Source of the DNA: Candidatus Omnitrophota bacterium
Lineage (GTDB): Bacteria; Omnitrophota; Gorgyraeia; Gygaellales; Profunditerraquicolaceae
DNA length: 64,000 nt
Assembly (NCBI GenBank): GCA_011620275.1
Contig: WOZK01000030.1
Location: 70,242 to 134,241, forward strand
Direction: 5' to 3'
This document shows, piece by piece, positions 40,101 through 64,000 of this stretch. Both the position numbers and the translations under genes were made by a program. Below the pieces are notes generated by a model that worked only from the letters and a program-made list of their open reading frames with translations, was not told the DNA's origin and did no database searches. Numbering within the stretch: position 1 is the first letter of the stretch; each line of letters begins with the position of its first letter.

Positions 40101-43100
40101 ATAGCGCGATACGACAATCCGCAGCCGCCTTTGGCCAAATAGTGTCCCGGCGCAATAATGAATAATCTCATGCCCTATACCTATGCCCCAGAATAAAGGT
40201 ATTGCGGCCGCAAGAAACAGCATGACCGATCCCCCTAATCCCAGGCCCCAATGAGCGCTCAGAGAAAAACCCGGTAGCAAACCGGATACGAACCATCCCC
40301 CCGCAATAATCGCAAAAAGCGCCAACCGGGAATAATTGAATGATATCTGCCGCGCGCCCGCGAAATAAAACTTGCGCATAAAGTGATGTGGCCTGGAAAT
40401 CGCTCTATCCCCCGGGTTATCGGCATACGGCCTGCCGCCGTCGCCGTTCTGTGCGCGAGGATATCCTTTCAGCGAGGACATTATATGGTTTGCCAATGTT
40501 TTGCGTTCCCAGAAATTTGGGCTTCTACGGTCGGCTTGCTCATGTTTCAGAATCACCGGCAGAACAATCCGGATATTCTTGCCCGTCGGATCGACATCCA
40601 GAGATCCCATACCGAACTTAAAAAACAGGTAAGTATATTTATTTGTTGGTCTGCTATCTACGGGCTTGCCCGCCGCGTAAGCATCAGCGAGACAAGTTTC
40701 GCCATGGAAGCTTTCGGCGGCGAGGCTCGCGGCTATATTCAGGCGTATATAATCAAGCGGATGCGCTAAAATATGCTCAAGAGCCTCGCCGTCTCCACGG
40801 CTTATCCCGATCAAATCATCGATGATTTCTCTTTTGGAGTCGTCCGAAATACGCGAGAAGATTTCTTCTCCTGAACACCATTGGATCTTATAGTGTGTCG
40901 ACGCCTCACCCCATTTCTCGCTGTATTTTTTTATCCGGCTCAGATAAACAAAGAACCTGCCTACTATTTCTTCTCTGCCGCTGAGAAACAATACTCTCGT
41001 CTGATCGTCATCCCCGCCTTCAGGGCCTAAGCTATCAAAAAACATCAATTCCTTGAATAACGCATCCCCACCCCATTCCTCGTCATTCCACTGCTCTTCA
41101 AGCCAGTTCTCCAGCTCTTGAAGGATAGACGAATAGTTAATAGGGAAATCCCCGTCACACAAATATTCACCCTCATTGATAATCCTGTTTTTCCCTCCGT
41201 CCGGATTATTAAGCCGCCGCTCTTCGCGTCCCACGCCAGACATCCCCCCGGACTTTTCTGCCACCATTGTCAGGATACGCGCAAGCTTTGCCGCCTGCTC
41301 GCTATCACCTTTCTCTATCAATTCCAGGATCCGCTTTTCAAATCTTTTGGCAATAAATCTTATGTCATCGTCCGGCAAAGAATAGAATTCCCCGAATCTG
41401 CAAATAGCGTCTAAAATAACGGTGTTATCCGAACCCAGCAGGAACGGAAATAGCGCCCGTACTTCCCTCCCCTCCAGATAAAGCAGATCGCGCGGCCTGC
41501 GGTCCTGCATGATCAGCAGGCTTACTTCATGGGATAGATCATTCACTCTTATCCAGGTGTCCTCAGCAGGTTCACGCCGCAGTTCTATAAGAGAATCTAT
41601 AAGTTCAAGGAACAATCCGGACAATTTCTGCTCCCATTCAGCCCCGCCGTCAAACAATTCCTCTGCCCTTTCCAGACGCGCCGTCTTTAGCGCCCTTATT
41701 ACCGTCTCGGCCTCCCCGGCTATCGCCGATATTTCATTGTCGAAGTAGAGCTCATCCGCCTGTCCGCAGGAAGCCGCGGCTCTTTCTATGGAATCAACTC
41801 CCTGCGGACGCAGAAGCTCCATTTTGAGAATAAGACCTATCTTCTTCTCCCAAGATAGGCCTGCTGTCGAACCAAGAAACCGGCGACATTTCATCCGCCC
41901 CTGCGGCGCTCTCAAAGGTGTGTTGCCTTCGAGTAGATCATACACGTCTTTTTCATACGCTTCCGCGGAAACGCTTAAAAGATCATAGGTGAACTGTTCC
42001 AACGCCCCCTCCCCGAATTCTTCCGCCGATCTACGGTTGAATCTGCTGTACGGCGTCATCAAATGCTCTCCCTGTTTGCGCAAGAGGATACCGCGAAGTT
42101 CATAGTCGCGTCCCCATGCGGAATAGATCGCTATCTTCGGCGGCCAATCCACCCAGGAAACATGCCCGGATATGAAAGAAGCAAAGGAACCAAGATAACT
42201 GTCCGCGGCGATATGCCTGGAATTTATGCCGTCAAGGTAGTATTCATATGAAAACCGGCTGCGGGAAGAAATCAGATGAACGATATGGGCGTTCTGCAGC
42301 GGCAATGTCTGTAAAAGACTATGAATTTCAGCGACGCAGAAAGAAGAGTCGTCGATATAATACAATGCGGGCGGGGCGCGCGAAGAATACAACTCTGCGG
42401 CCAGCATTTTCGCCTTCTTCCCTTCGCCATAACCGCAGAAACGGATATTTCCCTCCGGAATATCAATGCCGGCGCTCTTTAATACCGCGAGAGTCCCCGC
42501 TTTCGTGCTTTCATCACGGCCGGTCAGAACGACAATTCTCAAGCCAAGGCGTTCAGCCGTCTTTAGAAGATGATCCGCCCCTTCCGTCATCCGGTAAATA
42601 CCCAGGCGCACTCCCAATCTCTCTACATCAGTATATTCTTTCATGGCTACGCTTTTGAGCCAATCCACCTGTTCCTGCATCCAGATCCCGAACTCTTCCG
42701 GCTCTTTGATCTCCCCGGAGCTGTATATATTGTTCTGTATGCTGTCCTTGATCATATAATACCGCCTGCGTATAAAATCCGACGAAGGGTAATCCAGTGT
42801 CGTCCGGAGCAAAGTGTCGTCCAGGTCCACGATAAGCACCCCGCCGCTTACAGCAGTCCTCTCCATATTGCCGGCCGCTTCAAAAAGGCTCCCGGTGGAA
42901 AAACTAACCGGGCCTGCCCCCCCGTCATTTTCGCACGAGCGAATACTTGGCCTTCCGATAGGCCAAGGTAAAATCCGACACTCCGCGGAATAATCTGCTC
43001 CGCGTTTTTGCGCGTAGGCCGGCAGATTATTTATGCTCCTTAGATAACCGATCATACCGGAAAGAATAGCGGCCTCCCTGGTGTCGTAGTTTTCTAACGT

Positions 43101-46100
43101 TCTGTCTATGATTTCGCTGGTACAAGCCGACAAAGGCGTCTCGGTGGAGCGTATCAAAAGAATTAACTTGGACAGGTCTATACCGCAGAATCCCAGGAAA
43201 CGCTTGAATCCGGAAGAAGAACTAATCAATTCTATTGTTTTCTCCGGTTGCGGCGCTATGGATGTAACGGCGTTGCAGCTATGAAGGATGCCGCTGATAA
43301 CCGACAATAATGCATATTCAAGGTTGTATCTTTCTTTAACGGCGAAAATAAGGAATAGATACCCTCTGCGCGCCGGGTCATAATTCTTCAAGAAGCCGCC
43401 GGCGTTCGAATACTTAATATGGTCGAAAACCCACATCAACGGTTTCAACTGGCGGCCTGTAACCTGATAAGTTGTCTTCAATTGCTCGAGTATCAGCCCG
43501 CAAGAAACGTCGAAATCTGGCGTCCGTCTATCGGCGTCTCTCCCAGAATAAGAAACCAACAAATCCGCCATCTTTCGCAAATCCCCCGTTTGCGAAAGTG
43601 AAATCTCCGCCTTGAAGAAGTCATTTTCCGGCAGTAACTGATGGGAAACAACCCGGACTTCTTCATTAAGATACCTTCGGGCATCACCGTCCGGCAGGGT
43701 GCGCTTTAAACGCACCTGTCTGCCGATCCCCTCTTCATATTCCATACCAATATGGCTCAACTCTATTCGGTCAAAGCCAAGGCTGAACCAGCGTTTGATA
43801 GTCTCTCCCAGGCGGAGTTCTTCCGTGCATATTCCGGAGGTGCTCATCTCATCTATTCGCTCAAAGGCGTGAAAACGGGGATTATACAATATTTCCTCCA
43901 GGGCGAACGCGAATATTTTCCTGCCGAAACCGCTCTTTGCCCATCGTTCCTTACGTATGGATATTTTTCCCAACGCGCAAGTATTTCTCCCTTGACTGTC
44001 CTTAGAAACCGACACTTCAAAAGTCAGCACCCCGCGTCCGTCATCCGCGGCCGCCCTGTATATATACAACCCTCCCCCGGCCGGCCTCAGATAAGACACA
44101 TTCTGCTCCGATATGCGCATCCCGTCCCTGTAAACGACCACCGGCCCGGATCCGCCGTCGTGAATATCTTCCGCGGAAATCCCCGGTACCGATATCAAAC
44201 CGTTAATGCCCGTTATATCTTCAGCCCGCGCCTGGCGCGCTGCCTTCCGCCATCGCTCATCCGGCACTGCCGGCAGAGGCGTTTTCATCTCTTCAACGTA
44301 ACCGAACAAGCCCGCTTTCATGACTTTACCGAATATAAGCTTTCGATCCTCCACGCGTACGCTGTCACACCTTAGTGTCGCGAGGCGGCTGCGAATAATC
44401 TTCCATAATTCTCTGCTGTCGATACAAACTCCAGTCATCTCAAAGTAACCGGCAGTCGGAAAGCTATCTCTGATATCATCAAAAACAGCGCTTAATAACA
44501 TCCCCGCAGAGACAGAAGGCGCGCCAATGCCTTTATAGATCGACAAATCCATCATTGTTCCCGCGTTGGCCTCGAAATAGAATTCCACTGTCCCCCATTT
44601 GCAACCGCAGATAACGTATTCTCTCCCATCTTTCCCAAAGATACGAGTTATACGCAGGCGAGAATCTTCAAGACCAGTATCCTCCCGGATCAACCTGCCG
44701 CCGTCGGGTAAAGAAATAAAATAATCCCCTCTGTAAGCCCGGTTTAAGAAATTATTCCGTTGGCAATATAGTTTATTCAGTTTGTCCTCTCCTGATTCTC
44801 CCGGGCACAAGAGATTGAGAATCATATAATATAGACTTTCTCCGTTCCTCCCGGCGGCATCAAGGGCCACTCCACTACCGGTAATTTCCTCCATAAGAGG
44901 CTCCATCAATAAATAGCCCGGCCTTAGTGTTTCATCCGAGAAAATACGGTAAAGCTCCCCAGGGACTCTTTGTGAAGACACGAATTGCTTTAACCTCGGC
45001 AGATCATCCCAAGGACAGGCGAATAAAGTATCTATCCCGTCTGTTTGCTCAAGGCGGCCCTCAGCGGCATTAAATTTCATTTGATCCATCTGCATACGGA
45101 CGGCAAAATATGTATCTCTTCCTATTTCTACGCGTAATATCCTCACTCTTTCCAATATGTTTTCTGTATAGAAATAACGCATCGGCAAACCTAAATCGAG
45201 ATCTCCGACACAAACAGTGGTAACACCTGACAAATCATTTATCTTCCCGGTTTCGCGGAAAACTATTTCACCGTTGGGTGAATTACCGCATTCCCCGCAG
45301 CTTATTTCCTTACAAATAAGATCACCATAGTATTCGCTTAAATTCCTCTCCTTATTAAGATTAACCGCAACCAGGTCTTCCAGTTCTGCTGCGTAAGGAA
45401 CAATGCCCCGTTTTCCTAAGATCATTGCATCATACGGGCTGAATCCGGCAAGATAATCCCGCTCTTTAAACCCGAATTCTGCCATAATATGCGGAACCGA
45501 CATACGACCTTTCCCATACGGCAGCAATAACGAAAGAACTCTAAAATGGTCAACATTGATATGCAATTTCTTCATCCCTTCTATTAGAAAATGCGGCATA
45601 AGGCAGCAATCGCCATACCCGCAACTCAAAACCTCTTGAGGAGAAAAAACATCCACGTTTCGCTCGATAACACCATATTTAATATATTCCCCATAACCGT
45701 ATTTATTCCAGTCCAATTTTTTATTCATTAGTTCCGACAACTTCCGCAGCGCTATTGGTAAAGCTGTTTTTTCTCGGCCGCCGTCCTTTTCATCCGGATG
45801 CATCGCCATCCTTCTTATCTGCCACTCCGATCCCAATTTATCCCGGCCTTCGGAAACGTCGCGTTTGGGATTACTTATGCTTATGTAAATATCGAAATTG
45901 CCGTCGGGATAACAATCCTTCAGTTTTACGAACATCGTGTTTATATAACGCTCCACTTCGTCCTGTATTTCTTGTTTCGCATTCGGGTAGGAATATTCCC
46001 TCCATTTTATATTAGTCGTTTCCTTCGCGTATCCGGGAGCCATATATAACAGGAGGTCTTTATACTCTTCCAGCGACAAACAAGCCGTCACACCGTCTTC

Positions 46101-49100
46101 ATCCCAGGAAAACCGTTCCGCAAGCGATATACCGGAAAATGGATGCAAGGATACTCCGTTGTTCCTCACAAATTTCTCCAGATAATAAGAAATTCCTCCG
46201 TTATCATTCTCGGCGTGATAAACAAAATTTCTGGCACTGTTCAATTCCCTGGAATCCGGCAAAGACGGCAATACGCCGCGGTGCGCGTCGTATAACAACC
46301 TGAAAACGGAAAACTTTTTATTGAAGCCGGCGGTTTGTTCATAGAAGTGTTTCAGGAGAGAAGAGAACTTGAATTCATATAACGTATGAATTCCCTGCCT
46401 GTTCCGGCCCAGACCGTCGATCTCCTTCTCCGCGGAATACTGAGGCGCTCCCGTACTGAAGTAAAAAACTCTGCTTAATTCCCTGATGAAACCGATATCG
46501 ACCTCGTCGCGGAATACCAGATTGAATTTATGCACCCCGGAAACAACTCCGAGAATCCCCCTGATCCGGGAAATGTAACGCCGGTAATGCTGCGGGCGGA
46601 CTTTCGATTCCTTCCGCCTGACATCGCCGACTATCCGGTAGAACTCCTTGAATGTATCTATTCCGTAACTCCGCAGAAAAGCATTTCCCCGCTGCCTTCC
46701 GGTGCGTATCCCCCATATGCTTTCCGCCGCCAGTTCATCCATTTTCCTCAAGAACACCCCCATATCGACATCCGGCATAAGGACATCCCATAGAACGATG
46801 GCTTCGAGGACATCAAGCAAATCATCGAAAAAGATAGACGTATTTCCCTTGTTTTCCCGGATGGAAAAATAGGCGAATTCAAGGCATAAAGCCGCCAGCG
46901 TCCCTTCCGTAATATCAACCTTATGCCTGCCGTAAGTCTCGAAAAGGGAGGCAAGCCGCCTCCGTAAATATGCCGGGTTTGGAATATACGCGTCAATATT
47001 TTCTCCGAATACACTGTTATAAATCCGGGCCACATCGATATCTTCCAATGCATCGTTTATTTCCGAGAGAACGGCAACAGCCGGATATCCATACCCGCCG
47101 GCATCCCTTAGGATTGTGTCGCGTTCTTCTTTATGCAAACGCAGGAAAAAGTTGGTATCCTGCCTGAGTATATCCTCCTCATCCGCGGAGTTCAGTGAAT
47201 TAAGCTGATGCCGGAAAGCAAAAGTAAGGATATTATGCCTGTTACTGTTAGAAGGTTTAAGCGCCGCATCAAAGATAGAAACCGGAAAATAAACAACGCC
47301 GCCGCGTCGCTGATAAAGAAATATATTATTCTCTGTATCCTTGTAGAATACAAAAGAGAACTCGGTTGTCCGTCCCTTGTCTGCAAAAATATTTCCCCAT
47401 TCCTTATTTTTCTTTATCAAAGAAAGAGAATTCTTTATAACCTGCCATACTTCGGACTCGCGGTAGCCATCGCAGGAATCGATTATTACATCTTTGTTTA
47501 CATACTTCCCCGAGACAACCGGTTGTAAACTTACCTCCGCCCTATCCGCTTTCATATCGCTCTCGCAAACCCCGCGTTCCCCGCCGTCCGCCGTTTTCCC
47601 GCTGTCTGACAGTAAAGCATTATGGAAATCTTGTGATATATTATTAGGGAAAGAACCTATAATGAGAGGATTCAACTCGTCATTTTGGAGGGAGAATTCA
47701 TAAGGAGGTAATCCCTTGTCTATAGGCGGCGCGCGCGAGGGGACTTTTCCTCTTGTTAAAATATCATAAATGGAACACCGGGCCTCTTCAGTCCGGAGAC
47801 CGGCAGGGGGATTCATTACAATGGACGTTATCGCTTCAAACGGATGAATCCCCGCTATTTCATCTCGTGACCCTCCTGCGATATCCTGAACTACTCCGCA
47901 CCTGCCGCCGTCTTTGGCGCCGCTACTATTAGCCCCGTTATGTTTAGACACAACCACAGGTACCAAACGTTTAAATCCGTATCCGATGTATCCTGGATGT
48001 GTATTGTAGAAATTGATAATTTCCTGTATATAGGAAGAATTTTCCGGTATCTTTAAATACACCGTGCCGGTGAAATGGATACGCGGATCGCGTTTTTCTA
48101 ACGCGTACAAAGAACGGCAGATTTCTTCGACCTGTAGAAACGGTATATTATCAAGCAAAGAGGTACCAGACTCGTGCGTTTCCAGAATTTCCGCCACCCG
48201 GCCCCAATCTTTATCTAAATAAGCTATCAACAAAGGGTTAAAATCATTTTCAAATTCAGAGTTTTTCTCTATAGTGCGCAGATGAGCAATGATCGCGTAG
48301 TGTCTTATCCAGGAAAAGTCGGACCACATTTTCACTTCAATCCCCGAAACCGATATTCCTTCTTCTTCCTTGTTTGGCGCCTCGATAATACCGTCAGGCA
48401 ATCCATATCCTTCTCCACATATACCATTGCGTACCAACATCTTTTCCACATCCTTTTCTCCGCTGGTAGCAACGTACGGCTTACTGGTAAGCGCTGCGCG
48501 CTCAAAGATAAAAGAAGGCTGATCCGATATCTCAAGTTCTTTCTTTAAACTGTCCTTAAGTATAGCGATGGGTAAATCCACCCTAAGGTGATGGACTGTA
48601 AGCGGAAAATTTTCTCGGAAGAGCATTTCAATTACCTGAAAAACACTTCCGATTCTGCTCATATAAGTAAAATTACGGCAATCGGGTTCAATACCGAACA
48701 TGCGCCACACGCCCATCATATCCTTTAATAGCTTCAAATCGCCAACCAGTTGCAAAGAAACCGTGGAAATAAGGATATTGTTTTTTTCTAGTAATTTGAC
48801 TCTCTTGTTAAGTTCGCCTTCAGCTCCTGGTGAAAGAGCTAAATGAATAGTCTCCCGGCCTACAGGCAATCCCAGTCTGAACAGGGTGTGGCGCGCCCGC
48901 AGTCTCCCTTCATAAGAAATATCCGATTTATGTTCTTCTTCTGCCCGTTCAGGCTCGCTTTTATCAAGTTGTTCTTGCGCCTTGCCGGCCTCTTTAAGAA
49001 TACGTCGGGTATTCTTATTTAAGACTTCTATGATATCCGAAAAATGCGGTTGATATGACCGAGAGTCTTTCATCACACGGTATACAGCTAAAGTCAATGC

Positions 49101-52100
49101 CCCGAGAGTAAGCTTGCGCGCTCCGGCAAATTCACGCAAAGCCTGAAAGCTTTCCTTCAGCTTAATACTAAGCACATCCTCTTCGGATAAAGAATAATCT
49201 TCGCTCTCTTGCGCGTCAGATACCGCGGCGATCGACGCTTGTGCGACGTTGTGCCAATAGAGGGCGAACAGCAAATCACGTAAACTGAGCGTCTGTCCGG
49301 CCGCGGAATAAATATCACGGCCTTCCTGAAGAACTCCTTGGATTAAAAGCACTAATTCGTCCTCGGCCTCTTTCCGGGTTTGATATGCCAACCCTTTCGG
49401 ATATAAAAACCCGCCGCAATAATGACGCTGCGCTTTTATTTGAAATAAAGAGCCTTTTCTACAGGCTTCTTCCAAATATTCCGCATTACTATCCGTATAA
49501 TAGGACTCAATCTCAGCCGCAATGATGCCGATGGTAAGTGTAAGGCTGACGCGGGCACTCACTTTTTCATCAGGGTCGTATACCGTATACACAAAACCCT
49601 TCCGATCGGAATGCCAATAAACAATCATCCCGCCTTTCCTGGCCTGTTCCAGAAACACACGCGCGCGCGCGTCAAAATGAGCCCGCTGGGACGCCGTGTT
49701 CTCCCCGAAATAGGGGATATCATTATAAAACGCCTGCCTGGCAAGGCTGCGCAGAGGTTTCCCGTATTCAGAAGACCAGCGTAATGGAGCAGGCCGGCGC
49801 CCGGGATTTTCACAGAATACCGCATCCCACATATTCACCGCCATATATAAATCTCTATACCGGTCCTGCTTGACAAACCGTTCAAGATCGGCGCCGTAGA
49901 GATCCACAAGGACATTCAAGGCCTGTTCGGGGATCTTGCCGGAAAGAATCAAGACCTCAGGAGATGTACGCAGAAGAAATTCTTTGAGTGCCCGATTCCT
50001 CTCACGAGACAATATCTGCCGCAGACGCGGTAGAATATTTTTGTTATCGGCCCCTCCATCTTTACCTGTTCTTTTACGCCCTCCGGCCGGTTCAGTATGC
50101 CCGCCGTTTTTTTCTTCTCTTATACCTGTATTTAGCCGGGGGGAAATAATTCCTTGCGCGTCAGAGCCCTTCCGAATTTCTAACTCATATCCGCCGTCCT
50201 TGGTATTCTCTAAAGGCAGATTCAATACTGTTTGCGAAAATAGTCCTAAAATGTCCGTCTGGTTCCTTTCTCCGTTATATACTATTCCTTCAATAATCTT
50301 CACCGCAATATTGTTCAACCATTCCCCCTCCGGTCGGAACCCAAACCTAAGATAAAATATTAACGCGCCGGCCCCTAAAGCATCCGGGTTGTTAATCTGG
50401 CAGGAAGGAATAATAAATCTGTCCAACATGTATTCGTTATTCTCAAAAATACTGTTTACGACCGCCAGCCGCGAAGGAAAGATTTCCCTTGCCCTGTGTT
50501 GTGGCCTGTATTCCTTAAAAAAGTGCATACCTAAAGATAGGTCTCCTCCAAATAAATGGCTGAGACCGTAACCAATTATTTTCTGTGTGTTCTTATCCAT
50601 AAAAATCTCGAGAAATCCTTCCAAGTTGATGTCTCTTTGATCCGGGATTAGAACCAAAGAAGTATTTTGGTCCAACTCCGCCCGGTAAATAGTTTGAAGA
50701 TCCAAGAGACCAAGATTCGCCAAACTGTTTTTTTGTCTAAGTAATTCCACGGCAGGGATGGATAGAGTTTCAGCAGATAATCCGGTTATTTTATTGACTT
50801 TTATCTCACAAGGACGACGCAGTAATTCTCGCATCTCTTTGGGAAGCATCCACATCCCTAATTCCCAACGTAAAGAAGGAATCCCCTGACCGGAAGCAAG
50901 GAGCGGAGGAAATTTTCTCCCCCCATCCATTCGATCTGTCACCGTTACTCTCCCACTTCCCAGCACACCTTCCAACGGACACGATGTCTTTTTTATATTA
51001 CCCCCGTCTAAATTGCCGGAGACACCAGCCTGAGGTCGGGGTTTGTCAGGTAACTTTAAGGCTATATAGAAACAAGTTATCGCAAGCCCCCAGCATGTTC
51101 CTGCCGGAAAATCTAAACCGGAGAGATACGATAATAAACCTAAAGGTATAATCATGCCTGCCAGGATTAAATATAGAAGCGGACTCTCTTCCTTGGACTT
51201 TTCCGCAATATCATCTTCGCTTATAAACAATAATACCGCGGCCCCGAATAATGTTCCGCCCCATACTCCCTGAATCACAAAACCCGCGAGCATAAATATA
51301 AAACCCTTGATTGCGTGAACACCTCCGTCACTACGGACTGCTCCCGAAGATCCATTGTCTGTGTCTTTCCGCTTTATTTGCGCTTTCCACCATTGCGGCA
51401 GACTGGAAACCGGGATGTTTATATCATATTTCTCCAATTGTTCCAACCCGGTCCAATCACGTTCCCATAGATGCAAGATGGCGGGGGAAGCTATCTCTCC
51501 CATCACATACCAGTCGGGAAAACATTCCACAAAAAATTCATATAAACGTGAATGTATTAGCGAACCATAACCTTTGTGTTGGAACTTCCAGCTCATTGCC
51601 AGATTCTTCAGCCAGAGAGTTTTGTTTTTATTGACCTTTCCCGCTTTTTTCGAGAAAGGAAAATTAGTAAATTCAAATAAGAAAAGAATACCTTTATTGC
51701 CCGCGCCCACTTCATGAACATAAATAGGATTTGTCCCAATCTGCTCATATCTCGCCTGCTCAAGGATTTCCTTTTCAGCAACCAGCAGCCGGATCTCAAA
51801 AAGCTCCTTTTCACCTATTATCCTGACATTCTTCATATACGCGTAAACCAATGTTCCTTGACCCGCGGTATATTCATATCTCCCGTTCCAGAACGAGGCA
51901 CGACCTCCCTGAGGATAATCTTCACGTATTAGTACTCCTAAAGGTCCCCCGTTCTTAGATTCCAACTCCTGCCCCAAACGCCCCAGCCAGGAATAATTCT
52001 CAAACATATCCGCCCGGGCGCCGCCGTCAAAACCGAAAGATTCATCTCCCGGCTGATATATCCCTCCCCTTTCTCTATACCGTTTCAACAACGGCTGAAG

Positions 52101-55100
52101 AATATTGCAGGGAATCGCCCAATGCAGCTCTCTCACAGGCGCGTCTTTCCGCAACAGTTCCTTGACATAGGAGGAACTGACATTTGTATAAACATACGGC
52201 ACCAAGAATACTGTCGGTATCGAAGGAGCCAGTAAAAGGTTGGCCCAGGCAAGCGGAAGTTCGCTCTTTAGATCCTTATAGTCCCTGACCCCGCGCCGAA
52301 ACACCCCCGCGCCAAAACTGCGCGCGCAATCAACCGTCAATCCGTCGTAACAAATAACCTTTACATTAGTAATCCCGGCGGTTTTCAGGCAAAATTCGAT
52401 CATCGCTTTGTTCTCCTGCCGCGAAAACCACTGCTTCCCCTCCTTATCCGGGTTGGGACCGATACCGATGTAAACAGTATCGAACATCGCCACCGCCCTG
52501 CGCACTACTTCCAGGTGCCCGTTGGTGAAAGTATCGGCAGACCGGGAATCGTCCTTAAAATACCCCGGATACACGGCAATTATGCCTTTGCCTGTTGCAT
52601 CGCGAATGGGTTCCCGGGAAAACCGTAACGTTCCAGATGTGGATAGCGAAGACTGCCGTTCCCCGCCGTCACGGCTATTTTTGCGCAAACTGCCGGCCGC
52701 TTCTCTTTTAGCGGAAAGACGATGATGGAAAACCTTGAACCATCCGCGGTGTTCCTTTAGGAAATTATACGCCGCACTCAACGCTTCCTGAAAACTCAAA
52801 TCATTTTCGATGCCCGGGTAAATTATACGGTCTTTTAGACACTCCATAGTCTTTGCCGGAGAATATCCTTCCTGATCAAGCCGCATACAGAGTTTCGCTA
52901 ATAGAACAAGATTATCCTGGTACAAACTAACATCCCCTTTTGAAAAGCGCGCGGCCAAAGGAACTCCGATCTCCAGCACTTTACATATATGGAATATTCC
53001 GGCGTCCAGTAATCGCTCCCCCATATCAACGGCAGGTTTGACCCATTCGCCGTTGTATCCCTCTAAGGCCGCGAGCATCTTTGGCAGGGCTCTTTCACAT
53101 AGATAGTTAATGCTTATTCTTAAGGTCTGCGCTTTTTCAATCAATCCGCTTATTGGCGAAGTCGGAGGAATAACAGAGATTCGTTCGGTGGTTTCCCCGC
53201 CGTCTTTTTGGGCCTTTTCCTGTTCCTGCCTACTCACCTCTGGAAGAATACGCCTGCGTATCTTTAAGAGGTATTTTTTCTGACACGGAACCCCAGCCTT
53301 CCGTACTGCCTTATACAAATCATCGCCATTCAAGTCGCCTTTCTTCTCGATCACGTCTAATATTATTTTCTTAAGCAAATAATCTCTCGCTTTACAACAC
53401 AAATCCTTCCAATCCTTAAACCAGTCGTTACGGCATTTATGAAAAGCAATTTTAATTTTCGGGTCGTGTTTAAATACTTCTGTTTTAGAAATGGGACTTG
53501 CCTTTCTACTTGGCCCTCTCTGAGCGCGAATTTGTTCTAACGCGGCGTTAACCCTTTGAAATAATTCTTCTTGAGTCTTTATATCCTGATAAATATCCTC
53601 TTCATTAGTTATTTGCAATATAAACAACCGGAACCGGCAGTCTAAACGATATTTTCCTCCATATGGAGCAGGCGACAACAACTTTTCTCCTCCGCAATCA
53701 AGCTTGCCTACCAGCCTGCTGAAGAATTTGTTATTCATTAAAATGTAGGAAAGCTTCCCGTTCCACCTTTTAACTTTGGCCACGTAGATCTTCTCATTTG
53801 GTTTGGTGTTATGCGCGACAGCTGTCAACACCTCCCGTTCATCTTGCGATAGCCCGTTCCAGAGCGGCATGAACATCTCAGAATCTACCGTTTGCTCTGC
53901 CTCATGCGTTCCGCCGTCAAGAACATCCATACTCCCTTTTTCCACACCGGCCGGAAAATCAGGCTTACCATCCGCTCTATACTTCCGTATCTTCATCTTT
54001 GATATCTGGCCGATGTACAAAAGATACAGGCCGGACAACAGTTCCCGGAGTATAGGATCCATGAAAGACTCCGGCGTGTAACCGCGGGAAAGAGCCACGG
54101 TTATTACATATGGCTTTACCTTTTTCTCTTCCAGAATCTTACAGATTCCTCGGATCTGCTTTCGTAATATCCCCAATATGCCCTCTATCTCCGCTTCTTG
54201 CTTGTCTTCAATCGGGCTTATATTTTTATCCCAGAAGTAATCGGCGTCGAAATCGAGGATCACCGGTTTGCGGTTCAGGCTGAAATCCGGCAGTTCATCC
54301 GTATAAACCTTGTGCACTTTTATTCTACGCACCGCGCCTACCGTTATATCCCATCCTGTATTTTCTCTGAAATCCATCACCCAACTTCCTTCTTCCAAAG
54401 GATGAACCGGCCGGAAATAAATCACAGGATGCGTTCCGGTGCCATTTTTAACCGTCAGGTCAGCAACATACATATCGATCTCCTTCCGCTCACTGATAAG
54501 AAAATTGGCGAAATAACGATAGCTGTTGACGGGTTTGAATATGGGCGAGACATCGGGATTCCAATAAAGATATTTTCTTCGACCATCACGCATATACTCC
54601 GGCAATACCCAGTATATCTCATCGACATATCCATCATATACGGCCGGGGATATAAATTGATCAAAGGCGGGGCGTCTCCGGGCGACGGCCTTGATACTTC
54701 GAGACAACGGGTAAAAATCCCAAATGTCGCACATATCCTGATGCGTGTCAAAATGTATCAAAACAGCAGGATTGGTAATACGCTTCAGGAGCCTGCCGAT
54801 CTCCCAAGATGAAAACGCGTCCCCATGGTTTTCCATAAGAAACATCCGCGGAGCCTTGGAAGGACCTTGAACCTCAAAAATGCTATCCCTCCCTGCTTGC
54901 AAAATCGTTTTTACTAAAGAGGACCGGCTAAAGCTCTCCCTGCCGCCGCGTATAGTGTCTCTTACGGCCGAATCTACCGCTTCTGTACTTACCATCCCCT
55001 TTTTTAAAGAAGCATCTCTTGGAGTCACTAATTTCCCTTTGCCGCCGTCCTGTTCACGGGCATAACCACGGTAATTCTGCACAGCAGCCGCTCCGCCTTC

Positions 55101-58100
55101 TTTTTCCAGAATGTTAAGCATATTTTCGAAAGAAGAAACACCCATTATTTCCCGTATTCTCCGCAACCGTTGTAAATACAAACCCCTTTCGCTTCCGCTC
55201 TCATCCGCTGCCAGCCGCAATAACAATGTTCCCGCCTTCTTTGTGTTGCAATAACATCCGGCGAACCAGCTTCGGAATGCACCCTCATCATCCGTCATTC
55301 TTATTTTCCTGTCTGGAGACAATGGTTTGAACCCGAAAGCTTCCCTTATTCGGCACATCTCAGCGATATCAATCATTGACCAAACCAGAGGAAAAGGGAA
55401 TTTTTGCAGCAGGCCGGTTCCCTGTTTTGAGAACAAATAAGCGATATTAACAGCGGCCAAATGAGGATTATTTTCCGCGATTAAGCGATTCCTGTCCTTT
55501 TCATTCAACCGGCAGCAGCCGCTTTTTTCCAGGTAATTGATCAATACTGCATTCATAATGCCGTCTAAAGATACCCGTCTAAAACCCCAGACGGGTAACT
55601 TACTCCACGTATCGCCGACCAAATCGGACAATTCGTTGGAAGAGAATAAAGCGAACACATCCGGGAAAATATCCGGCAGATGTGCCGGAGGAATGCTGGA
55701 ACCGACGCTCACCGAAGTTTGCCGGGTCATACTCTTTTCCGCTCCTGTCAAAAACGCTTTCAAAAATGATTTATTTGAGCGCACGGCGCGGAAAAACTCT
55801 TTATGCGGGCCGCAATCACCGAATAGAGCAAGCAGTGAATAAAACAAAACCGTTATACTAAAGTCAAACAGCCGTATTTCTTTATTCTTGCCGCTGATCC
55901 CGGTCAAAACGGCAAGCTGTTTCAAATCAAATAACGCCTCATGCAACTCTATATTAGAGGTGGAGTGCTGATCGTAAGTACGGGAGAGATATGTTGTGGA
56001 CGTACCCGAATCTCTAAAAAGAGGGGTGCGGATACCGGGGGTAACATATATTGCACAATCCGGCGGGGTATTGGGAAGCAAAGATATGGCAAAAAGAAAC
56101 TTTTGTTCAATCCCGGGATTACTGCGGCTTGCCGGCATATCCAACTGCCCGCCGGCAATCTTACCGGCGCGATACGTAAACCTTCTCTCCCAAAAACGGC
56201 TATTGCTGAATATAAGAGGAAAGACTTTCTCCCCTCCGTCTCTGCCCGGATTTTTCGCATCCTTCGGAGAACGTCTTGTTACCTTACACCCGTATTGGAC
56301 CACAATAACGGTAATTTGGGCAGACGTCTTTTCAAAAGGCAATCCGGACAAGATTCTTTCCGCTAATGATACCGCCTCTAGATCAACAATCCCTTTTCCG
56401 TTTACATATCTTTCGAATGCCAACAGGTATTCGCCCAGGGCTTCCGCGTTGGTGTTCTTTTTTCTGCTTCTATCAGTCAAGATGGCATCTATTCCCGGCA
56501 TATAATTCATCAAAGACAACCGATGAATAAACGTATCCCAAGCGGTATCCTTTTCTATAATACGCCGCATTTCCTCGGAGAATTTGGCGCGCAGAAAGTG
56601 GAGTAGCCCTTCTCCTAACTTCTTGTTGAGATACGCCAGATCACAGCGTTGTGCGCTTAACGCCTGCCGGAAAAGAGGCAGCCAAAAACCGTAGAATTCC
56701 GAGTCTTCTCCGGACAATCTGAATAACTTTCTCTCATCGAAAACCCAGGCTTGTTCCGTTCCATTGACGACAGTATATCCTTTGTCAGACAGTTCTTTTG
56801 CTTTTGTCGGCGGGACCTCCGTCACTATTCTGTCGATATATTCAAACTTGCCGCTATTTAATTGTGAAAGTAACTCTTTCTGATTAACGATACACATATT
56901 GCCTTTTGTTGAATATCCGACTCCCAGACCCTTCAGGGACGTAAGCAATTTTTGCGAACTGCGCAATTTTAAATCAGCATCCCCGCCGTCATTTTTACGG
57001 TTATTCCGCGCGCCGGTTGCTCCCATTTCTTCGAGAACGCGTTGAAAAGAAGGGTTTTCTTTCCTTAAACTCAATTCCCCGGCTTCCACAAAACCCCTGA
57101 ATGAGCCTTCAGCAGCTACTTCCCTCATTATTCTTTGCAGTTCAATCAACTCACGCTGCAAATCCGATGCCGTTTGCCCGGAGAAAAAACCCAACACCAC
57201 TTTTAGATTCTCTAAAGTGGGGGGTATACGATAACCGGCAAATAGGCCGGCTAACGGATGCTGAACAAGAACACCCGGTTGCAGCTTGTTGAACGTTTCT
57301 TTTGGTCCATAAGGCAGTGAATACGATAACGTGATCAGATATTCAGAGATTAATCCTACATCGGCGGCATTCCACACCGCTTCCCAGATACGCACTTCTT
57401 TATCATCTAAAACTGCCTGTATTCGATCAATCCCTCTATGAACGGAACGTAAAGAATTCAAATGAAAAAGAGCTGATTTGAATGCGCGCATCCTAATTTG
57501 CATATTTATCTTTTCATCAAGTTCTTTCCTGAACGAAATAAAGTTCTCTTGATCGAAACTCGGTGTTTCTGTCTCGACTAACCCCGTGCCGCAAGATACC
57601 GGAAAAATCCCTTCGTCATTTTCACACTGGTAAAGACCTGCCTCTCCTCTAAGGCAGGGTGTTATTCCACTAGGCCCTGGTAAAATCCAGCGCTCTGTGG
57701 GATAGTCTGCGCTCCTTTCATCGCCAACGCCCGCGTGAACATGCGCCGGGCGTTTACGGGATTTCCCTGATTTTACGGAAGCGGGACACTCATTACGCCG
57801 GGAGTTTTTCTTCCACTCGTTGTATTTCTGTGTCAGTAAATCATCGTAGTATTTACCGCCGGGATTAGTCAGTTTTTTCACCCAGGCGTAAAAGGCGTCA
57901 TACGTGATCCTTTTTCCATTAGACCGCAGAAGTTCGAATCCTTTATGGGGGTTATAATCGCTCTTTTTAAGCGCTGAAACAACTTCTTCAGCGGTCAATC
58001 TGTTTTTGTTGTAATCACCGGCGAACTTCTTGTCGTATCCAGGCTCCCCCGGTGTGGTCAACCTGTAAACCACTGTGTCCATCACGCCGCGGCTTACCAA

Positions 58101-61100
58101 CTTGCCATTGGAACACAAATGCCTCAAGGCTGCATTTGTACGGAAACCATTCTCCCGCATCGCTTTTTTTATGTCCTCCCGCGAGGCCTTACCGGCCGGC
58201 ATATTCTTGATACCCTGTACAGGCACAGATACCTTTTTGCCTGGATCCCCGGATTTCTTAAGATGATCTCCGAATAATCCGAATTCCTTTTCCTTAGCAC
58301 GGAATTCCGCGCTTTTCTTGCGTAATCTTCGCACCCTCGTTTTGAAAGTATTCAGCTTGACCACATATCCTTCCTTTTGAAGCAAAGCGAGAGCGCGACT
58401 ACCGTGAAAATTAGTTCTCTCCATGCAATCAAGGATAACTTCATCCGGGACTCTGTCGGCATAGAACTTCTCTTTAACAGCAGCTTTGTGACGTTCGATG
58501 ACTTCTAAATACTTGGGGTCTTTCCTCAACTGCCGATAATGATGTTCACTGATCCCCAGACGCTTAATTGCCGATTCTATAACGCCTCCGGCATCCGCAA
58601 GCGCCTGGTCAAGCTCTTGCGGGGAAGGGCTGATAGAAGGAGGATAAACTCTTTTATTCCTATCCCTGCCGATAATAAAATAGTACCCTTTACCTTCTCT
58701 GTCAGAAACAGGACTGCCTTCTTTATCCTTGATAATCCGGACTGCTCTTACTCTGCCATCTTTGATCACCACCTCGGCCTCTGCTTGAGGAAATCGAGAG
58801 AAAGTTTTCCATGTGCGGTTGCCCACATAGACTGCTCCGGAAGGAGGCAATATGAAATTCTTTAACGTATGGTCCTGCAATTTACTTAATTCTTTTCCGG
58901 ACAAATGGAACCGTTTCCCCTCCATCGCACTTGTCGCATTATTCCAGACCTCAAACGGGACAGACATCTTATACCGCCCGTCCCCGCCGTCATTGTTAAG
59001 AACTTTTTGTATAATCTTCCCCAGAAAAGCGGCGTCTCTTGCCGCAACCCTCTTAATATTCTCAGGGGTAGATTCATATTCAAGGATAAATACTTCCGAA
59101 AAACCGCGTTCTTTAATCAATATTTTCAATACTTCTTCCAGCGCGCCATTCAACGAAAGGGCCTTATATAAAGGAAGATGGATTTCTTTTGTCATCTGAT
59201 TAAGGAAATCGCTTCCATGAGCGTGAACTACCGCTATGGGAATATCCGTATCAAGTTCACGCAGAAATTTATCAGGAGCGCCTTGCGGAGAAGCCAAAGC
59301 ATGTCCCAAATCCAGCGTCATCCCCAGATGTTTTTTCTCCCGGGAGCTTAAAATCCCGGATAAAGACGCGAATGTCGAATTCATATCAGCCGCGCTATGC
59401 CAGTCCGCGTTTAGCTTTATTGGGATCTGATGGACATTTTCTATGCTCAAAACAACCTTTTCCCTTTCAGCTAACCGGACCAAAGGAAGAACACTGTCGG
59501 TGAATAGTTTTCCCGGAGTAGTCAAATGCATAGTAACCGCGCGCGCGCCGACTCGTGAAGCAAATTCAATTGTCTCCCGAATCGCCCGCGTATTTGCCTG
59601 TTCTTTAACAATATCGACATGCGGGGCGTGACAGGTCAAATAAACCGCGTTTTCTTCCGATGCCGCCTTTAGCGCGTCAACCGTGCTTGGACTGACAGAA
59701 GAAGGCCTGTATCCCGAAAACGCTATTTCAAGGCTGTTCAAATTTCCCCCGATCTCATTAACGGCTTTCAGCAAAGGAATAATGCCGCTGGCATCAGCGC
59801 CTTTCCAATAAGACGGTCCGGTTTTAAGCTCATATCCGCCGTCTTCTTTATCTCCTTCACCTGCCTGTTCACAAGGTTTATTCCCAAGCATAAGGTGCGC
59901 TGTAATCATAATAACATCTTCATCCGCCGGCTCATCCACCGGGCTGATTTCAATATAGAACTCACCTTCTCCAATCTCCTCCGGAGAGCAAGATTCCGTA
60001 TATCCGGCTTGCCGGAAGGCATTCAATATTTCCTGATATGCCGGCTCAACACCGCCAAACGCTTCCGCATGGACAACGAAGGTAATAGCGTTGGATAATT
60101 CCGATTTTCCTACACTGGATAATGCCGCTCTTCTGAGAATAAGCAGGCTGGAGGCCAGGTATTCATCAATCCCCAGATACCAGTTGCTTTCATCCGGCAT
60201 TACCACTGAAGGAATATTAAACAGCCACTGCAGCTCTCCGACCGGAATCTCAACCGGCACTTCGGTGATCACGCCTTTTTCATCGATCTCAATCCATTTA
60301 TTTCCATTCTCATAGTCTCGATCCGGAAAATCCTCTCTGCGGTGCGGCCCTATGGACTGCTCGGAGTATAAAGCACAAAGGATCACTGCCCAGGAGAAAT
60401 CGAGTTTATTGCGCAGTTCCAGAGCCTTTCTGGTTGTCAAGGTCATCTCCGAAATTTTTTCCCGCATCTCCTCTACCGCCCTCTTTGCTTCTGTCAGGCC
60501 TTCTTTATTCCTGGTCAACCACACATTTTTCTGCATTATTTCTCCCATCCGCCTATCCATCGCTTCAACATCAGACAGTTCTTCTCCCGGAGAAACACGG
60601 TATAATACTTCAGGAATAGCTATACCCGCCAAAGAAAGCTCTTCTTTTCCAAAAACATACTCCTTCATCGCCATAGCCGCGTTAAAAGCCATCTGTAAAA
60701 GCTCGGATAAGGAATTACTCGCCATGCGCTCTGCGCCATGAAGCCCGGTATATGCCGATTCTCCCAAAACAAACAGCCGTTTGAGCAAAGATCTGCCGGA
60801 TTTGTTCACGGGCGCGCCTCCTATGGTATAATGTGCCGCCGGCGCAATCCTGATCAAGTGTTCGGCCTCGTTAAAATTCTTGTCGCGCTTTTTAATCTCT
60901 TCATAGAGATTACCGAAATGCTCCTTAAAATCTTCCATATCGGGTATAAATAGGTAAACATATGGCTTGCCCGACTTCTCCATTTCCTGCAATATCGCCA
61001 GAGAAACCACATAACGTTCCGCCATTTCCAGCTTAGGGTCGTATTTATGCATGAAAAAGACCGGATTTCCGTCCTCATCAGGCTCAAGAACACAAAGCCG

Positions 61101-63962: not shown

Positions 63963-64000
63963 CCTCTGCCGCAGACGGACATTGTCCGATTCACCCGGTT

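What the first reader, a model, noticed from the sequence alone, without database searches (positions are those of the whole stretch)
60288..61970. Complete L-aspartate-oxidase-like flavoenzyme embedded as an internal module
It is colinear with NadB across all three subdomains (FAD-binding, capping, C-terminal helical), including 'AATGREI', 'HPTALY' and 'AAHYTIGG...SYTGLHGAERMASNSL'. The 'RGEGA' stretch carries an insertion ('RNPRDGKGA'), so activity may be altered. A soluble NAD-pathway or SdhA-type oxidoreductase fused mid-chain into a >10 kaa membrane protein is highly unusual. It could serve as a redox module acting on a tethered substrate, or as a repurposed scaffold.
Basis: partly seen in the sequence, partly recalled or inferred. 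Interest (0 to 1): 0.7.

Follow-up and report, generated by a model that had tools for sequence, protein, structure and literature searches.

The report
NadB-type flavoenzyme domain in Omnitrophota giant protein
The flagged stretch really encodes a complete L-aspartate-oxidase-type flavoenzyme domain inside a bacterial protein of at least 10,932 residues, but such enzyme domains strung into giant proteins are a described habit of the phylum Omnitrophota, so this is a new example rather than a new kind of thing.

Summary
Confirmed. On the minus strand, window 60288-61970 encodes aa 665-1225 of an ORF of at least 10,932 aa (31164-63962). It is a full NadB/SdhA-superfamily flavoenzyme domain: PDB NadB E 1e-50, and an AlphaFold model that matches E. 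coli NadB 1KNP at TM 0.87. All catalytic and substrate residues are kept (E121, H244, E260, R263, R290, H351, R386, S389). It is nonetheless a diverged NadB:
- it scores 266 bits against the 452.75-bit equivalog cutoff;
- it keeps 59 of 69 near-invariant NadB positions;
- GxGxxG has become GxGxxS;
- the NPRD hinge insertion is unique;
- dN/dS is 0.31.

The host is an Omnitrophota bacterium. The same embedding occurs in two other MAG fragments and, at 41-46 % identity, in a 3,505-aa Ca. Omnitrophus magneticus protein. That protein sits next to a PncB-PncA-NadE fusion gene. "Multi-enzyme" Omnitrophota giants are already described (preprints of 2023 and 2026). I therefore call it a new member of a known kind, most likely a working FAD oxidoreductase domain.

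In passing: the tripeptide DGG occurs 37 times (4 expected). It brackets every detectable domain, and strain-to-strain homology breaks fall at DGG sites. These may be module junctions or processing sites.

The parts
31164..63962 (-). Giant ORF, at least 10,932 aa. It may continue upstream of the window. It carries the flavoenzyme domain as aa 665-1225.
   Evidence: ORF list; translation, single terminal stop; no in-frame stop upstream; related contig open further 5'
59835..62411 (-). DGG-to-DGG segment (aa 518-1376) that contains the flavoenzyme domain plus an N- and a C-extension
   Evidence: DGG sites 518 and 1374; 91 % identity to MAG contig L001 starts exactly at DGG-518
61971..62402 (-). 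N-extension, aa 521-664. The first ~60 residues are predicted disordered, followed by a small beta/helical element that leads into the Rossmann fold. It is not shared with P0121.
   Evidence: pLDDT below 50 for model residues 1-62, 72-87 for 70-140; BLAST to P0121 starts at aa 661
61209..61970 (-). FAD-binding domain, first part (aa 665-918, about E. coli NadB 8-237). Contains GRGGAS (673-678) in place of GxGxxG, K699, AQGG 715-718, catalytic Glu798 (E121), GMGG 884-887 and TGDG 902-905.
61755..61793 (-). 13-residue surface insertion PGELKEQPEGEKK (aa 724-736) after the AQGGxAA motif. Standalone NadBs have 3-4 residues here.
60825..61208 (-). Capping domain (aa 919-1046, about E. coli 238-353) with His925 (H244), Ser942/Glu943/Arg946 (T259/E260/R263), Arg983 (R290) and His1044 (H351)
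61113..61124 (-). NPRD insertion (aa 947-950) in the hinge between R263 and G264. It is unique to this lineage.
   Evidence: 0 of 121 standalone NadBs and P0121 have no insertion here; also present in P0001
60624..60824 (-). FAD-binding domain, second part (aa 1047-1113) with GE 1067-1068, HGAERMASNSL 1075-1085, Arg1079 (R386), Ser1082 (S389) and the N385E change
60288..60623 (-). C-terminal helical domain (aa 1114-1225; Pfam Succ_DH_flav_C 1137-1222)
59844..60287 (-). Conserved C-extension (aa 1226-1373; motifs W-x-F-x-x-P, GID, GY, GE[FY][FY]I). It is shared with P0121 and P0214. Fold not resolved.
   Evidence: alignment A2; low pLDDT
62403..62411 (-). DGG-518 junction tripeptide
59835..59843 (-). 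DGG-1374 junction tripeptide
59022..59762 (-). Next module: xylose-isomerase-like TIM barrel (aa 1401-1647), inside DGG segment 1374-1658
54579..54842 (-). UPF0489 / peptide-arginase-like module (aa 3041-3128)
52089..52577 (-). CoaD (pantetheine-phosphate adenylyltransferase)-like module (aa 3796-3958), inside DGG segment 3765-3979
   Evidence: TIGR01510, 103.0 bits against a cutoff of 103.3

Best explanation
The stretch encodes a structurally complete, probably active, FAD-dependent oxidoreductase domain of the L-aspartate oxidase (NadB) type. It is one of several enzyme-type domains strung along a giant protein of at least 10,932 aa in an Omnitrophota bacterium.

It belongs to an Omnitrophota-specific clade of NadB derivatives that are only seen inside long multi-domain proteins. 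Members share a ~145-aa C-terminal extension and replacements next to the catalytic residues: H124, D291 and N385 in E. coli numbering.

Inferred mechanism, by homology:
1. A dicarboxylic amino acid, most likely L-aspartate, is held by His925, Ser942, Arg983, His1044 and Arg1079.
2. Glu798 takes the ammonium proton.
3. A hydride passes from C2 to N5 of non-covalently bound FAD, giving iminoaspartate.
4. The flavin is re-oxidised by fumarate or O2.

The ancestral role was NAD synthesis. In Ca. Omnitrophus magneticus the domain still scores as a true NadB, shares its polypeptide with a NadD-like domain, and lies next to a PncB-PncA-NadE fusion gene. In the window's lineage the domain has drifted further and no NAD-pathway partner is visible nearby, so its present substrate and pathway are uncertain.

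Shown: homology, fold, residue conservation, conserved embedding, purifying selection. Inferred: FAD binding, activity, substrate.
For: Homology and fold: (1knp TM 0.87).

Catalytic set: E121, H244, E260, R263, R290, H351, R386 and S389 are all retained. Position 259 is Ser, the majority state in NadBs. Roles of these residues are taken from PMC10249383. That paper also notes that Glu121 is NadB-specific, where SDH/FRD have a neutral residue.

FAD motifs: K38, AQGG, xxGG, GDG, GE and SNSL are retained, and 59 of 69 positions that are at least 95 % conserved in 121 NadBs are kept.

The embedding is real and conserved:
- P0001 (91 %) spans both flanks, and its contig ORF is open at both ends.
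- P0002 also carries the module with its upstream flank.
- P0121 and P0214 share the domain plus the C-extension.
- Reciprocal best hits support one clade.

Selection: dN 0.030, dS 0.097, omega 0.31 over the domain.

NAD context in the relative:
- P0121's domain scores 481 bits against the nadB cutoff of 452.75.
- It has a NadD-like stretch.
- Its neighbour is a 2,199-aa protein with NadE at 713 bits and PncB at 563 bits.

Multi-enzyme giants are described in Omnitrophota.
Against: - The nadB equivalog score is 266 bits against a cutoff of 452.75.
- The third glycine of GxGxxG is Ser, and the first 36 positions of the Pfam profile are not matched.
- Residues invariant in 120-121 of 121 NadBs are replaced right beside catalytic residues: H124Y, F243I, D291Y and N385E.
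- The unique NPRD insertion lies in the inter-domain hinge.
- An omega of 0.31 is relaxed for a core enzyme.
- No NadA, NadC, NadD or NadE domain is detectable in the giant or in the 31 kb of neighbouring genes.
- No biochemical data exist.
Confidence: 0.55

Rival explanations
1. Neofunctionalised enzyme. The domain still binds FAD and is active, but on a substrate other than free L-aspartate. It could act as a soluble fumarate/succinate-type reductase or oxidise another amino- or hydroxy-dicarboxylate. It would then serve the unknown chemistry of the giant protein, not NAD synthesis.
For: - Clade-specific replacements sit immediately next to the catalytic base and the two catalytic arginines: H124Y/S, D291Y/N and N385E/D. 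They are shared by the window, P0121 and P0214.
- The hinge insertion is unique.
- The score is below the equivalog cutoff.
- No NAD-pathway partners are nearby.
- The neighbouring modules are a sugar-isomerase-like TIM barrel, an arginase-like domain and a CoaD-like domain.
Against: - Glu121, the residue that distinguishes NadB from SDH/FRD, is retained, as is the full dicarboxylate-binding set.
- P0121, which shares most of the clade-specific changes, still passes the NadB cutoff and lies in an NAD-metabolism neighbourhood.
Confidence: 0.22
2. Non-enzymatic relic or scaffold. The fold is kept for structural reasons within the giant protein, but flavin binding or catalysis has been lost.
For: - GxGxxG has become GxGxxS, and the Pfam/Rossmann N-terminal matches that standalone NadBs show (PF01266, PF07992) are lost.
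- 10 of 69 near-invariant positions have changed.
- Omega is 0.31.
- There are three lineage-specific insertions.
Against: - Every catalytic and substrate-binding residue, and all other FAD-contact motifs, are intact after divergence to about 35 % identity from NadBs. A scaffold would not be expected to preserve them.
- Omega is well below 1.
- The modelled core is very confident and superposes on FAD-bound NadB.
Confidence: 0.18
3. Artefact. A standalone nadB gene has been joined to neighbouring genes by mis-assembly or sequencing error, so that there is no real fusion.
For: The sequence comes from a metagenome-type source, and giant ORFs are hard to assemble. That is a general consideration only; no result here points to an artefact.
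Against: - 32.8 kb run without a single stop in frame.
- Two independent MAG assemblies carry the domain with the adjoining flanking sequence in frame: P0001 across both junctions, P0002 across the upstream one.
- More distant Omnitrophota proteins show the same domain plus C-extension inside long ORFs.
Confidence: 0.02

Closest known systems
E. coli / Salmonella L-aspartate oxidase NadB (PDB 1CHU, 1KNP/1KNR, 5KXJ; TIGR00551)
   Same: Same three-domain fold (TM 0.87 to 1knp). About 28-35 % identity, colinear from the Rossmann beta-alpha-beta to the helical domain. All catalytic and substrate residues are identical, including the NadB-specific Glu121. There is no His at the SdhA covalent-flavin position.
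   Different: - Embedded at aa 665-1225 of a chain of at least 10,932 aa, not a ~540-aa soluble protein.
- Scores below the equivalog cutoff (266 against 452.75 bits).
- GxGxxS instead of GxGxxG.
- H124Y, F243I, D291Y and N385E.
- A 4-aa hinge insertion and a 13-aa surface insertion.
- An extra ~145-aa N-extension and a ~148-aa C-extension.
- No nadA or nadC nearby.
KJJ84128.1 'L-aspartate oxidase' of Candidatus Omnitrophus magneticus (P0121, 3,505 aa)
   Same: Closest non-trivial relative (41 % identity, 318-330 bits, above every standalone NadB). The NadB-type domain is followed by the same conserved C-extension. It shares the H124, D134, L287, D291 and N385 replacements. It is embedded in a long multi-domain protein that also carries a nucleotidyltransferase-like domain.
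   Different: P0121's domain is near the N-terminus, after a hydrophobic leader. It has an intact GxGxxG, no NPRD insertion, and passes the nadB cutoff (481 bits). Its partners are NadD-like, B12/radical-SAM and methyltransferase domains. Its neighbour is a PncB-PncA-NadE fusion gene. It has no DGG sites.
Omnitrophota giant proteins: 'multi-enzyme metabolic cluster' class (Nielsen & Lui 2026, 10.64898/2026.06.07.730766) and Archaeovorins (West-Roberts et al. 2023, 10.1101/2023.11.21.568195)
   Same: An Omnitrophota ORF of more than 10 kaa. Several unrelated enzyme Pfams tile the chain, with long unannotated stretches and internal TM segments.
   Different: Neither paper's main text names a FAD_binding_2/NadB domain. 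The one supplementary file held for the 2026 preprint does not either. This giant shows no SecA, C39, dockerin or glycosyl-hydrolase domains in the part visible here.
SdhA/FrdA flavoprotein subunits of complex II
   Same: Same superfamily and fold (FrdA 1kf6 TM 0.82). Shared His/Arg dicarboxylate-binding residues.
   Different: Much lower family scores (TIGR01812: 206 bits against a cutoff of 567). Asn at the covalent-His position. Glu rather than a neutral residue at position 121. No Fe-S subunit gene nearby.

Membership tests
L-aspartate oxidase NadB (EC 1.4.3.16; TIGR00551 equivalog) | Three-domain architecture: FAD-binding, capping and C-terminal helical domains | tested here: met
   Pfam FAD_binding_2 plus Succ_DH_flav_C. 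AF2 model core pLDDT above 90. Foldseek best hit 1knp, TM 0.87.
L-aspartate oxidase NadB (EC 1.4.3.16; TIGR00551 equivalog) | Active-site set His244, Thr/Ser259, Arg290, His351, Arg386 and Ser389, plus the NadB-specific Glu121 | tested here: met
   All are present: Glu798, His925, Ser942, Arg983, His1044, Arg1079 and Ser1082. Residue roles are from PMC10249383; Arg386 is not discussed in that paper and rests on the 1KNP R386L entry and prior knowledge.
L-aspartate oxidase NadB (EC 1.4.3.16; TIGR00551 equivalog) | Dinucleotide-binding GxGxxG and the other FAD-contact motifs | tested here: inconclusive
   GRGGAS: the third Gly is Ser, where 117 of 121 NadBs have G and 2 have A. Pfam profile positions 1-36 are unmatched. 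K38, AQGG, xxGG, GDG, GE and SNSL are all kept. Flavin binding itself is not testable here.
L-aspartate oxidase NadB (EC 1.4.3.16; TIGR00551 equivalog) | Score at or above the curated equivalog cutoff | tested here: not met
   TIGR00551 gives 266 bits against a cutoff of 452.75. All NF00xxxx NadB models are also below their cutoffs. The relative P0121 passes with 481 bits.
L-aspartate oxidase NadB (EC 1.4.3.16; TIGR00551 equivalog) | Family-invariant residues outside the catalytic set | tested here: not met
   59 of 69 columns that are at least 95 % conserved are kept. H124 (121/121), F243 (121/121) and N385 (120/121) are replaced.
L-aspartate oxidase NadB (EC 1.4.3.16; TIGR00551 equivalog) | Pathway context: quinolinate synthase NadA and NadC in the genome or neighbourhood | tested here: not met
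   Neither is found in the giant ORF or in the other 20 genes of the window. The rest of the genome is not available: the scan of species-representative genomes found only a 2.7-kb fragment.
SdhA/FrdA complex II flavoprotein | Covalent-FAD histidine, a neutral residue at the Glu121 position, and an adjacent Fe-S subunit | tested here: not met
   Asn at the position of E. coli NadB S45. That this position corresponds to the SdhA covalent-flavin His is from prior knowledge. Glu is retained at 121. No SdhB-like gene is in the window. TIGR01812 gives 206 bits against 567.
Omnitrophota giant multi-enzyme proteins (class 1 of Nielsen & Lui 2026) | An ORF of at least 10 kaa in an Omnitrophota genome, tiled by several distinct enzyme Pfams with none dominating by copy number | tested here: met
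   10,932-aa ORF. The only close relatives are Omnitrophota MAGs. Modules found: FAD_binding_2, AP_endonuc_2, UPF0489, CTP_transf_like/CoaD and a weak HAD, one copy each.
Double-glycine (C39-type) processed polyprotein (considered for the DGG sites) | A Gly-Gly at each junction, an extended leader consensus, a cognate peptidase, and demonstrated cleavage | tested here: inconclusive
   GG preceded by Asp at 37 junction-like sites. No extended consensus around it. No peptidase domain is detected in the visible 10,932 aa or in the adjacent ABC exporter. Cleavage is not testable here.

The most novel reading that the evidence does not exclude
The giant protein is a polyprotein or cassette array whose units are delimited by the tripeptide Asp-Gly-Gly. 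On this reading the NadB-type enzyme is not a permanently embedded module. It is one DGG-bounded unit (aa 521-1373) that is either released by cleavage after Gly-Gly or exchanged as a cassette between strains. That would supply the 'cleavage points' which West-Roberts et al. say are unknown for Omnitrophota giants.

Evidence so far:
- DGG occurs 37 times against 4.2 expected (z = 16), whereas the ordinary genes of the window show 2 against 3.0 expected.
- It also occurs 7 times against 0.5 expected in P0269, from another Omnitrophota lineage.
- All five detectable domains fit inside single DGG segments.
- Upstream flanks are strongly hydrophilic.
- Paralogous repeats align in register from their DGG.
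- Three of four strain-to-strain homology breaks or insertions fall exactly at a DGG; homology resumes upstream of DGG-342, not at it.
Probability: 0.3. Interest if true: 0.75.

Novelty: new member of a known kind. Interest (0 to 1): 0.4.

Why it matters
The domain adds a concrete, well-preserved redox enzyme to the catalogue of metabolic domains carried by Omnitrophota giant proteins. It is also the kind of domain whose activity could be tested by expressing one excised segment. NadB derivatives inside long proteins form a small Omnitrophota-specific clade with an NAD-metabolism context in one member. This suggests that core cofactor biosynthesis has been drawn into mega-proteins in this phylum.

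The side observation may be the more useful lead. DGG tripeptides mark the module boundaries, and strain differences break at them. That gives a directly testable handle on whether these giants are processed polyproteins or recombining cassette arrays, through metaproteomic searches for peptides that start or end at DGG and a survey of the thousands of known proteins above 10 kaa.

Tried and rejected
1. Plus-strand reading of the flagged coordinates gives only stops.

2. NAD-pathway partners inside the giant: a permissive Pfam scan (E up to 1) of aa 1-10,000 found no NadA, NadC, NadD or NadE. The cytidylyltransferase-like module is CoaD-like, not NadD-like.

3. DGG as a nucleotide-level motif (internal Shine-Dalgarno or recombination core). 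Asp is GAC at 34 of 37 sites. But GAC is also preferred before other Gly codons (24 of 34; Fisher p = 0.03), and the first Gly codon does not differ from other xGG (p = 0.3). The signal is therefore essentially at the peptide level.

4. A profile search with the conserved C-extension (alignment A2) returned nothing, not even the seed proteins.

5. The AF2 model of the C-extension alone has pLDDT 50.9 and is unusable, so no fold search was run on it.

6. The species-representative genome scan recovered only the 2.7-kb MAG fragment. The source genome could not be searched for a canonical nadB, nadA or nadC.

7. The metagenome scan with peptide patterns found no relatives. The scan with the clade signature HGA[D/E]RMASNSL gave three hits, all in ordinary standalone ORFs of 369-534 aa.

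8. Literature: neither giant-gene preprint mentions aspartate oxidase, FAD, PF00890 or DGG. No paper links DGG with Omnitrophota.

9. Self-BLAST of the whole giant printed nothing. A direct pairwise comparison was needed to show the N-terminal repeat.

10. Cytoplasmic location inferred from the absence of a signal peptide was dropped, because the ORF start is not secured.
Full report
**1. The observation**

The plus-strand translation of 60288-61970 is full of stops. The feature lies on the minus strand. A single ORF runs from 63962 down to 31164, 10,932 codons with one terminal stop. The flagged coordinates are aa 665-1225 of it.

Homology is unambiguous:
- Pfam FAD_binding_2 (E 9e-36) and Succ_DH_flav_C (E 2e-11).
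- NCBIfam nadB at E 6e-79 as the best of 28 NadB/Sdh/Frd models.
- PDB L-aspartate oxidases 5kxj and 1chu at E 1e-50, colinear over nearly the whole chain.

I modelled the segment aa 521-1373 with AlphaFold2, using an 84-sequence alignment (A1). The model has pTM 0.80 and pLDDT mostly above 90 across the flavoenzyme core. Its best Foldseek match in the PDB is E. coli NadB R386L with succinate (1knp): E 4e-37, TM 0.87 normalised to the target. FrdA and SdhA follow.

**2.

I used the E. coli numbering recovered from the printed 1chu alignment and a 126-sequence alignment. The active-site residues listed for NadB in PMC10249383 are all present:
- Glu121 = Glu798
- His244 = His925
- position 259 = Ser942 (Ser is the majority state: 92 of 121 NadBs)
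- Arg290 = Arg983
- His351 = His1044
- Ser389 = Ser1082

Arg386 = Arg1079, Glu260 and Arg263 are also kept. Glu121 is the residue that distinguishes NadB from SDH/FRD. The position that aligns with the covalent-flavin His of SdhA (the correspondence is from prior knowledge) is Asn, as in most NadBs.

Of 69 columns that are at least 95 % conserved in 121 standalone NadBs, the module keeps 59. The ten changes are G20S (GxGxxG becomes GRGGAS), H124Y, H131K, D134A, F243I, L287M, D291Y, P326G, P345R and N385E. H124 and F243 are invariant in 121 of 121 NadBs, and N385 in 120 of 121. H124, D291 and N385 sit three, one and one residues from Glu121, Arg290 and Arg386.

The 'RGEGA' insertion is four residues, NPRD, at a site where none of 121 NadBs, nor P0121, has any insertion. 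A 13-residue insertion also follows AQGGxAA.

The nadB equivalog score is 266 bits against a cutoff of 452.75. The N-terminal 36 positions of the Pfam profile are not matched. So the domain works like NadB on paper, but it fails the curated membership threshold.

**3. Whose gene is it?**

The other 31 kb of the window carry ordinary bacterial housekeeping genes: ilvBNCD, leuA, aroE, pfk, fba, metK, ahcY, ptsI, rpsB, lpxB, a prepilin peptidase and an ABC exporter.

A word-indexed search of 5.8 billion proteins found only two close relatives. Both are partial 'FAD-binding protein' entries from Candidatus Omnitrophota MAGs (P0001 at 93 %, P0002 at 91 %). Everything else is standalone NadB at 37 % identity or less.
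- P0001 maps to giant aa 518-1405, so it carries the domain with both flanks. Its 2.7-kb contig is one open frame end to end.
- P0002 maps to aa 79-921.

The embedding is therefore reproduced in independent assemblies and is not a mis-join.

**4. A wider embedded clade**

The exhaustive HMMER scan of 1.84 billion representatives added further relatives:
- P0121: 3,505 aa, 41 % identity, 318 bits against 221 or less for any standalone NadB.
- P0214: a 967-aa fragment at 46 % identity.
- P0123: 881 aa.

All are Omnitrophota. P0121 is KJJ84128.1, already named 'L-aspartate oxidase [Candidatus Omnitrophus magneticus]'. P0214 is a MAG fragment. P0123 has a 1,984-aa cluster-mate, P0269.

P0121 and P0214 share with the window a conserved extension of about 145 aa after the helical domain, with motifs W-x-F-x-x-P, GID, GY and GE[FY][FY]I. 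They also share the substitutions at H124, D134, L287, D291 and N385. They are reciprocal best matches.

P0269 and P0123 carry a more canonical NadB (68 of 69 positions) mid-chain after a methyltransferase. This may be a separate fusion.

**5. Functional context**

P0121's domain passes the nadB cutoff at 481 bits. Its chain also holds a weak NadD-like nucleotidyltransferase, a B12/radical-SAM domain and a methyltransferase. The gene directly upstream encodes a 2,199-aa fusion of NAPRTase (563 bits), nicotinamidase, NUDIX and NAD synthase (713 bits). The ancestral setting of this clade is therefore NAD metabolism.

In the window's giant, the other recognisable modules are:
- a xylose-isomerase-like TIM barrel (aa 1401-1647);
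- a UPF0489/peptide-arginase-like stretch (aa 3041-3128);
- a CoaD-like adenylyltransferase (aa 3796-3958; 103.0 bits against a cutoff of 103.3);
- a weak HAD hydrolase (about aa 7043-7167).

A permissive scan found no NadA, NadC, NadD or NadE. The present pathway role here is therefore open.

**6. Selection**

Codon alignment of the window to the MAG contig L001 gives dN 0.030, dS 0.097 and omega 0.31 for aa 665-1225. The two extensions give 0.40 and 0.32. This is purifying selection, but not stringent. It is not a decaying pseudo-domain, and it is not constrained like a core enzyme.

**7. Topology and ends**

A Kyte-Doolittle scan finds 11 TM-like segments. The first is at aa 4229. There is no in-frame stop in the 38 nt upstream of the ATG at 63962. 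The related contig L005 stays open further 5'. The ORF probably continues beyond the window, and the compartment of the domain cannot be assigned.

**8. Comparison with the literature**

West-Roberts et al. 2023 describe Omnitrophota giants of up to 85,804 aa. [quoted passage not shown] Nielsen & Lui 2026 define a class of 'multi-enzyme metabolic clusters', with 552 Pfam families over 779 long proteins, including oxidoreductase content. Neither paper names a NadB/FAD_binding_2 domain.

An enzyme domain in an Omnitrophota giant is therefore an established phenomenon, and this is a new, well-characterised example. I rate the novelty as a new member of a known kind, with interest 0.4.

**9. Noticed in passing: DGG punctuation**

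DGG occurs 37 times in the giant against 4.2 expected. It is by far the most over-represented tripeptide (z = 16; the next is below 7). In the window's ordinary genes it occurs 2 times against 3.0 expected.

Several properties point to module junctions:
- All five detectable domains lie inside single DGG-to-DGG segments, often within 10-30 residues of the sites. The chance that no DGG falls inside a domain is 0.014.
- The 12 residues upstream of DGG are strongly hydrophilic: KD -0.96 against -0.26 for random positions, with none of 5,000 resamplings reaching that value. The downstream flank is ordinary, and there is no extended consensus.
- The segments aa 161-341 and 342-517 are paralogues that align in register from their DGG.
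- Strain differences break at DGG. Window-L001 identity (91 %) starts exactly at DGG-518. Window-P0002 identity ends right after DGG-161, although it resumes about 17 residues upstream of DGG-342, not at it. P0002 has an extra 35-aa DGG...DGG unit at DGG-518. Window-L005 similarity starts at DGG-20.
- P0269, from another lineage, has 7 DGG against 0.5 expected, one of them right after its NadB domain. P0121 has none. Standalone NadBs are depleted, with 11 against 52 expected.

The synonymous-codon bias at these sites is mostly a general codon-context effect, so the motif is at the peptide level. No paper in the searchable library describes it.

The sites may be protease processing sites (Gly-Gly type) or cassette junctions. 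No peptidase domain is visible in the available 10,932 aa. I give the reading of 'a DGG-delimited polyprotein or cassette array, with the NadB-type enzyme as one releasable unit' a probability of 0.3.

**10. Verdict**

The most likely reading (0.55) is a working FAD-dependent, NadB-type oxidoreductase domain belonging to an Omnitrophota-specific embedded clade. The alternatives are:
- neofunctionalised, acting on another substrate (0.22);
- a non-enzymatic relic or scaffold (0.18);
- an assembly artefact (0.02).

Noticed in passing
window 31164-63962 (-), 37 sites; e.g. aa 518 = 62403-62411 and aa 1374 = 59835-59843: The tripeptide Asp-Gly-Gly occurs 37 times against 4.2 expected (z = 16). It brackets every detectable domain and has hydrophilic upstream flanks. 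Three of four strain-to-strain homology breaks or insertions fall exactly at a DGG. It is also enriched in P0269 from another Omnitrophota lineage (7 against 0.5 expected) and absent from P0121. It is a candidate module junction or processing site, and is not described in the papers searched.
   Followed up: partly
window 63963-64000 and L005:1-200: There is no in-frame stop between the annotated ATG (63962) and the window edge. The related contig L005 is open further upstream. The giant ORF therefore probably extends beyond the window, and 10,932 aa is a minimum.
   Followed up: partly
window 62412-63482 (-), aa 161-517: Two consecutive DGG-delimited segments (aa 161-341 and 342-517) are paralogous repeats (28 % identity, E 1e-14) that align in register from their DGG. 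They share the motif LLRHYG. In P0002 the first of them is replaced by unrelated sequence.
   Followed up: partly
L002:3090-9689 (+), Ca. Omnitrophus magneticus JYNY01000401.1: A 2,199-aa single polypeptide combines nicotinate phosphoribosyltransferase, nicotinamidase, NUDIX and glutamine-dependent NAD synthase. It lies directly upstream of the 3,505-aa NadB-containing protein. NAD metabolism is encoded here as mega-fusions.
   Followed up: partly
window 52089-52577 (-), aa 3796-3958: A CoaD (pantetheine-phosphate adenylyltransferase)-like module scores 103.0 bits against an equivalog cutoff of 103.3. It is a second cofactor-pathway enzyme domain in the same giant chain, tightly bounded by DGG-3765 and DGG-3979.
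   Followed up: no
window 54579-54842 (-), aa 3041-3128: A UPF0489 domain also matches the N-terminal part of the peptide arginase (FlmR/OhkR) model, at 46 bits against a cutoff of 350. Its function is unknown.
   Followed up: no
window aa 6052-6062 and 8494-8504 of the giant (about 45777-45809 and 38451-38483, - strand): The same 11-residue string MAMHPDEKDGG precedes two different DGG sites (6060 and 8502). This hints at a duplicated unit end.
   Followed up: no
window 730-3111 (-): A 793-aa ORF has the phosphoglycerate kinase domain only at residues 86-511. That is roughly twice the usual PGK length, and the C-terminal ~280 residues are unannotated.
   Followed up: no
window 26950-28740 (-): An ABC exporter (ABC_membrane plus ABC_tran, 596 aa) lies about 2.4 kb downstream of the giant gene on the same strand, with lpxB (+ strand, 29094-30272) between them. 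It has no N-terminal C39 peptidase domain.
   Followed up: no
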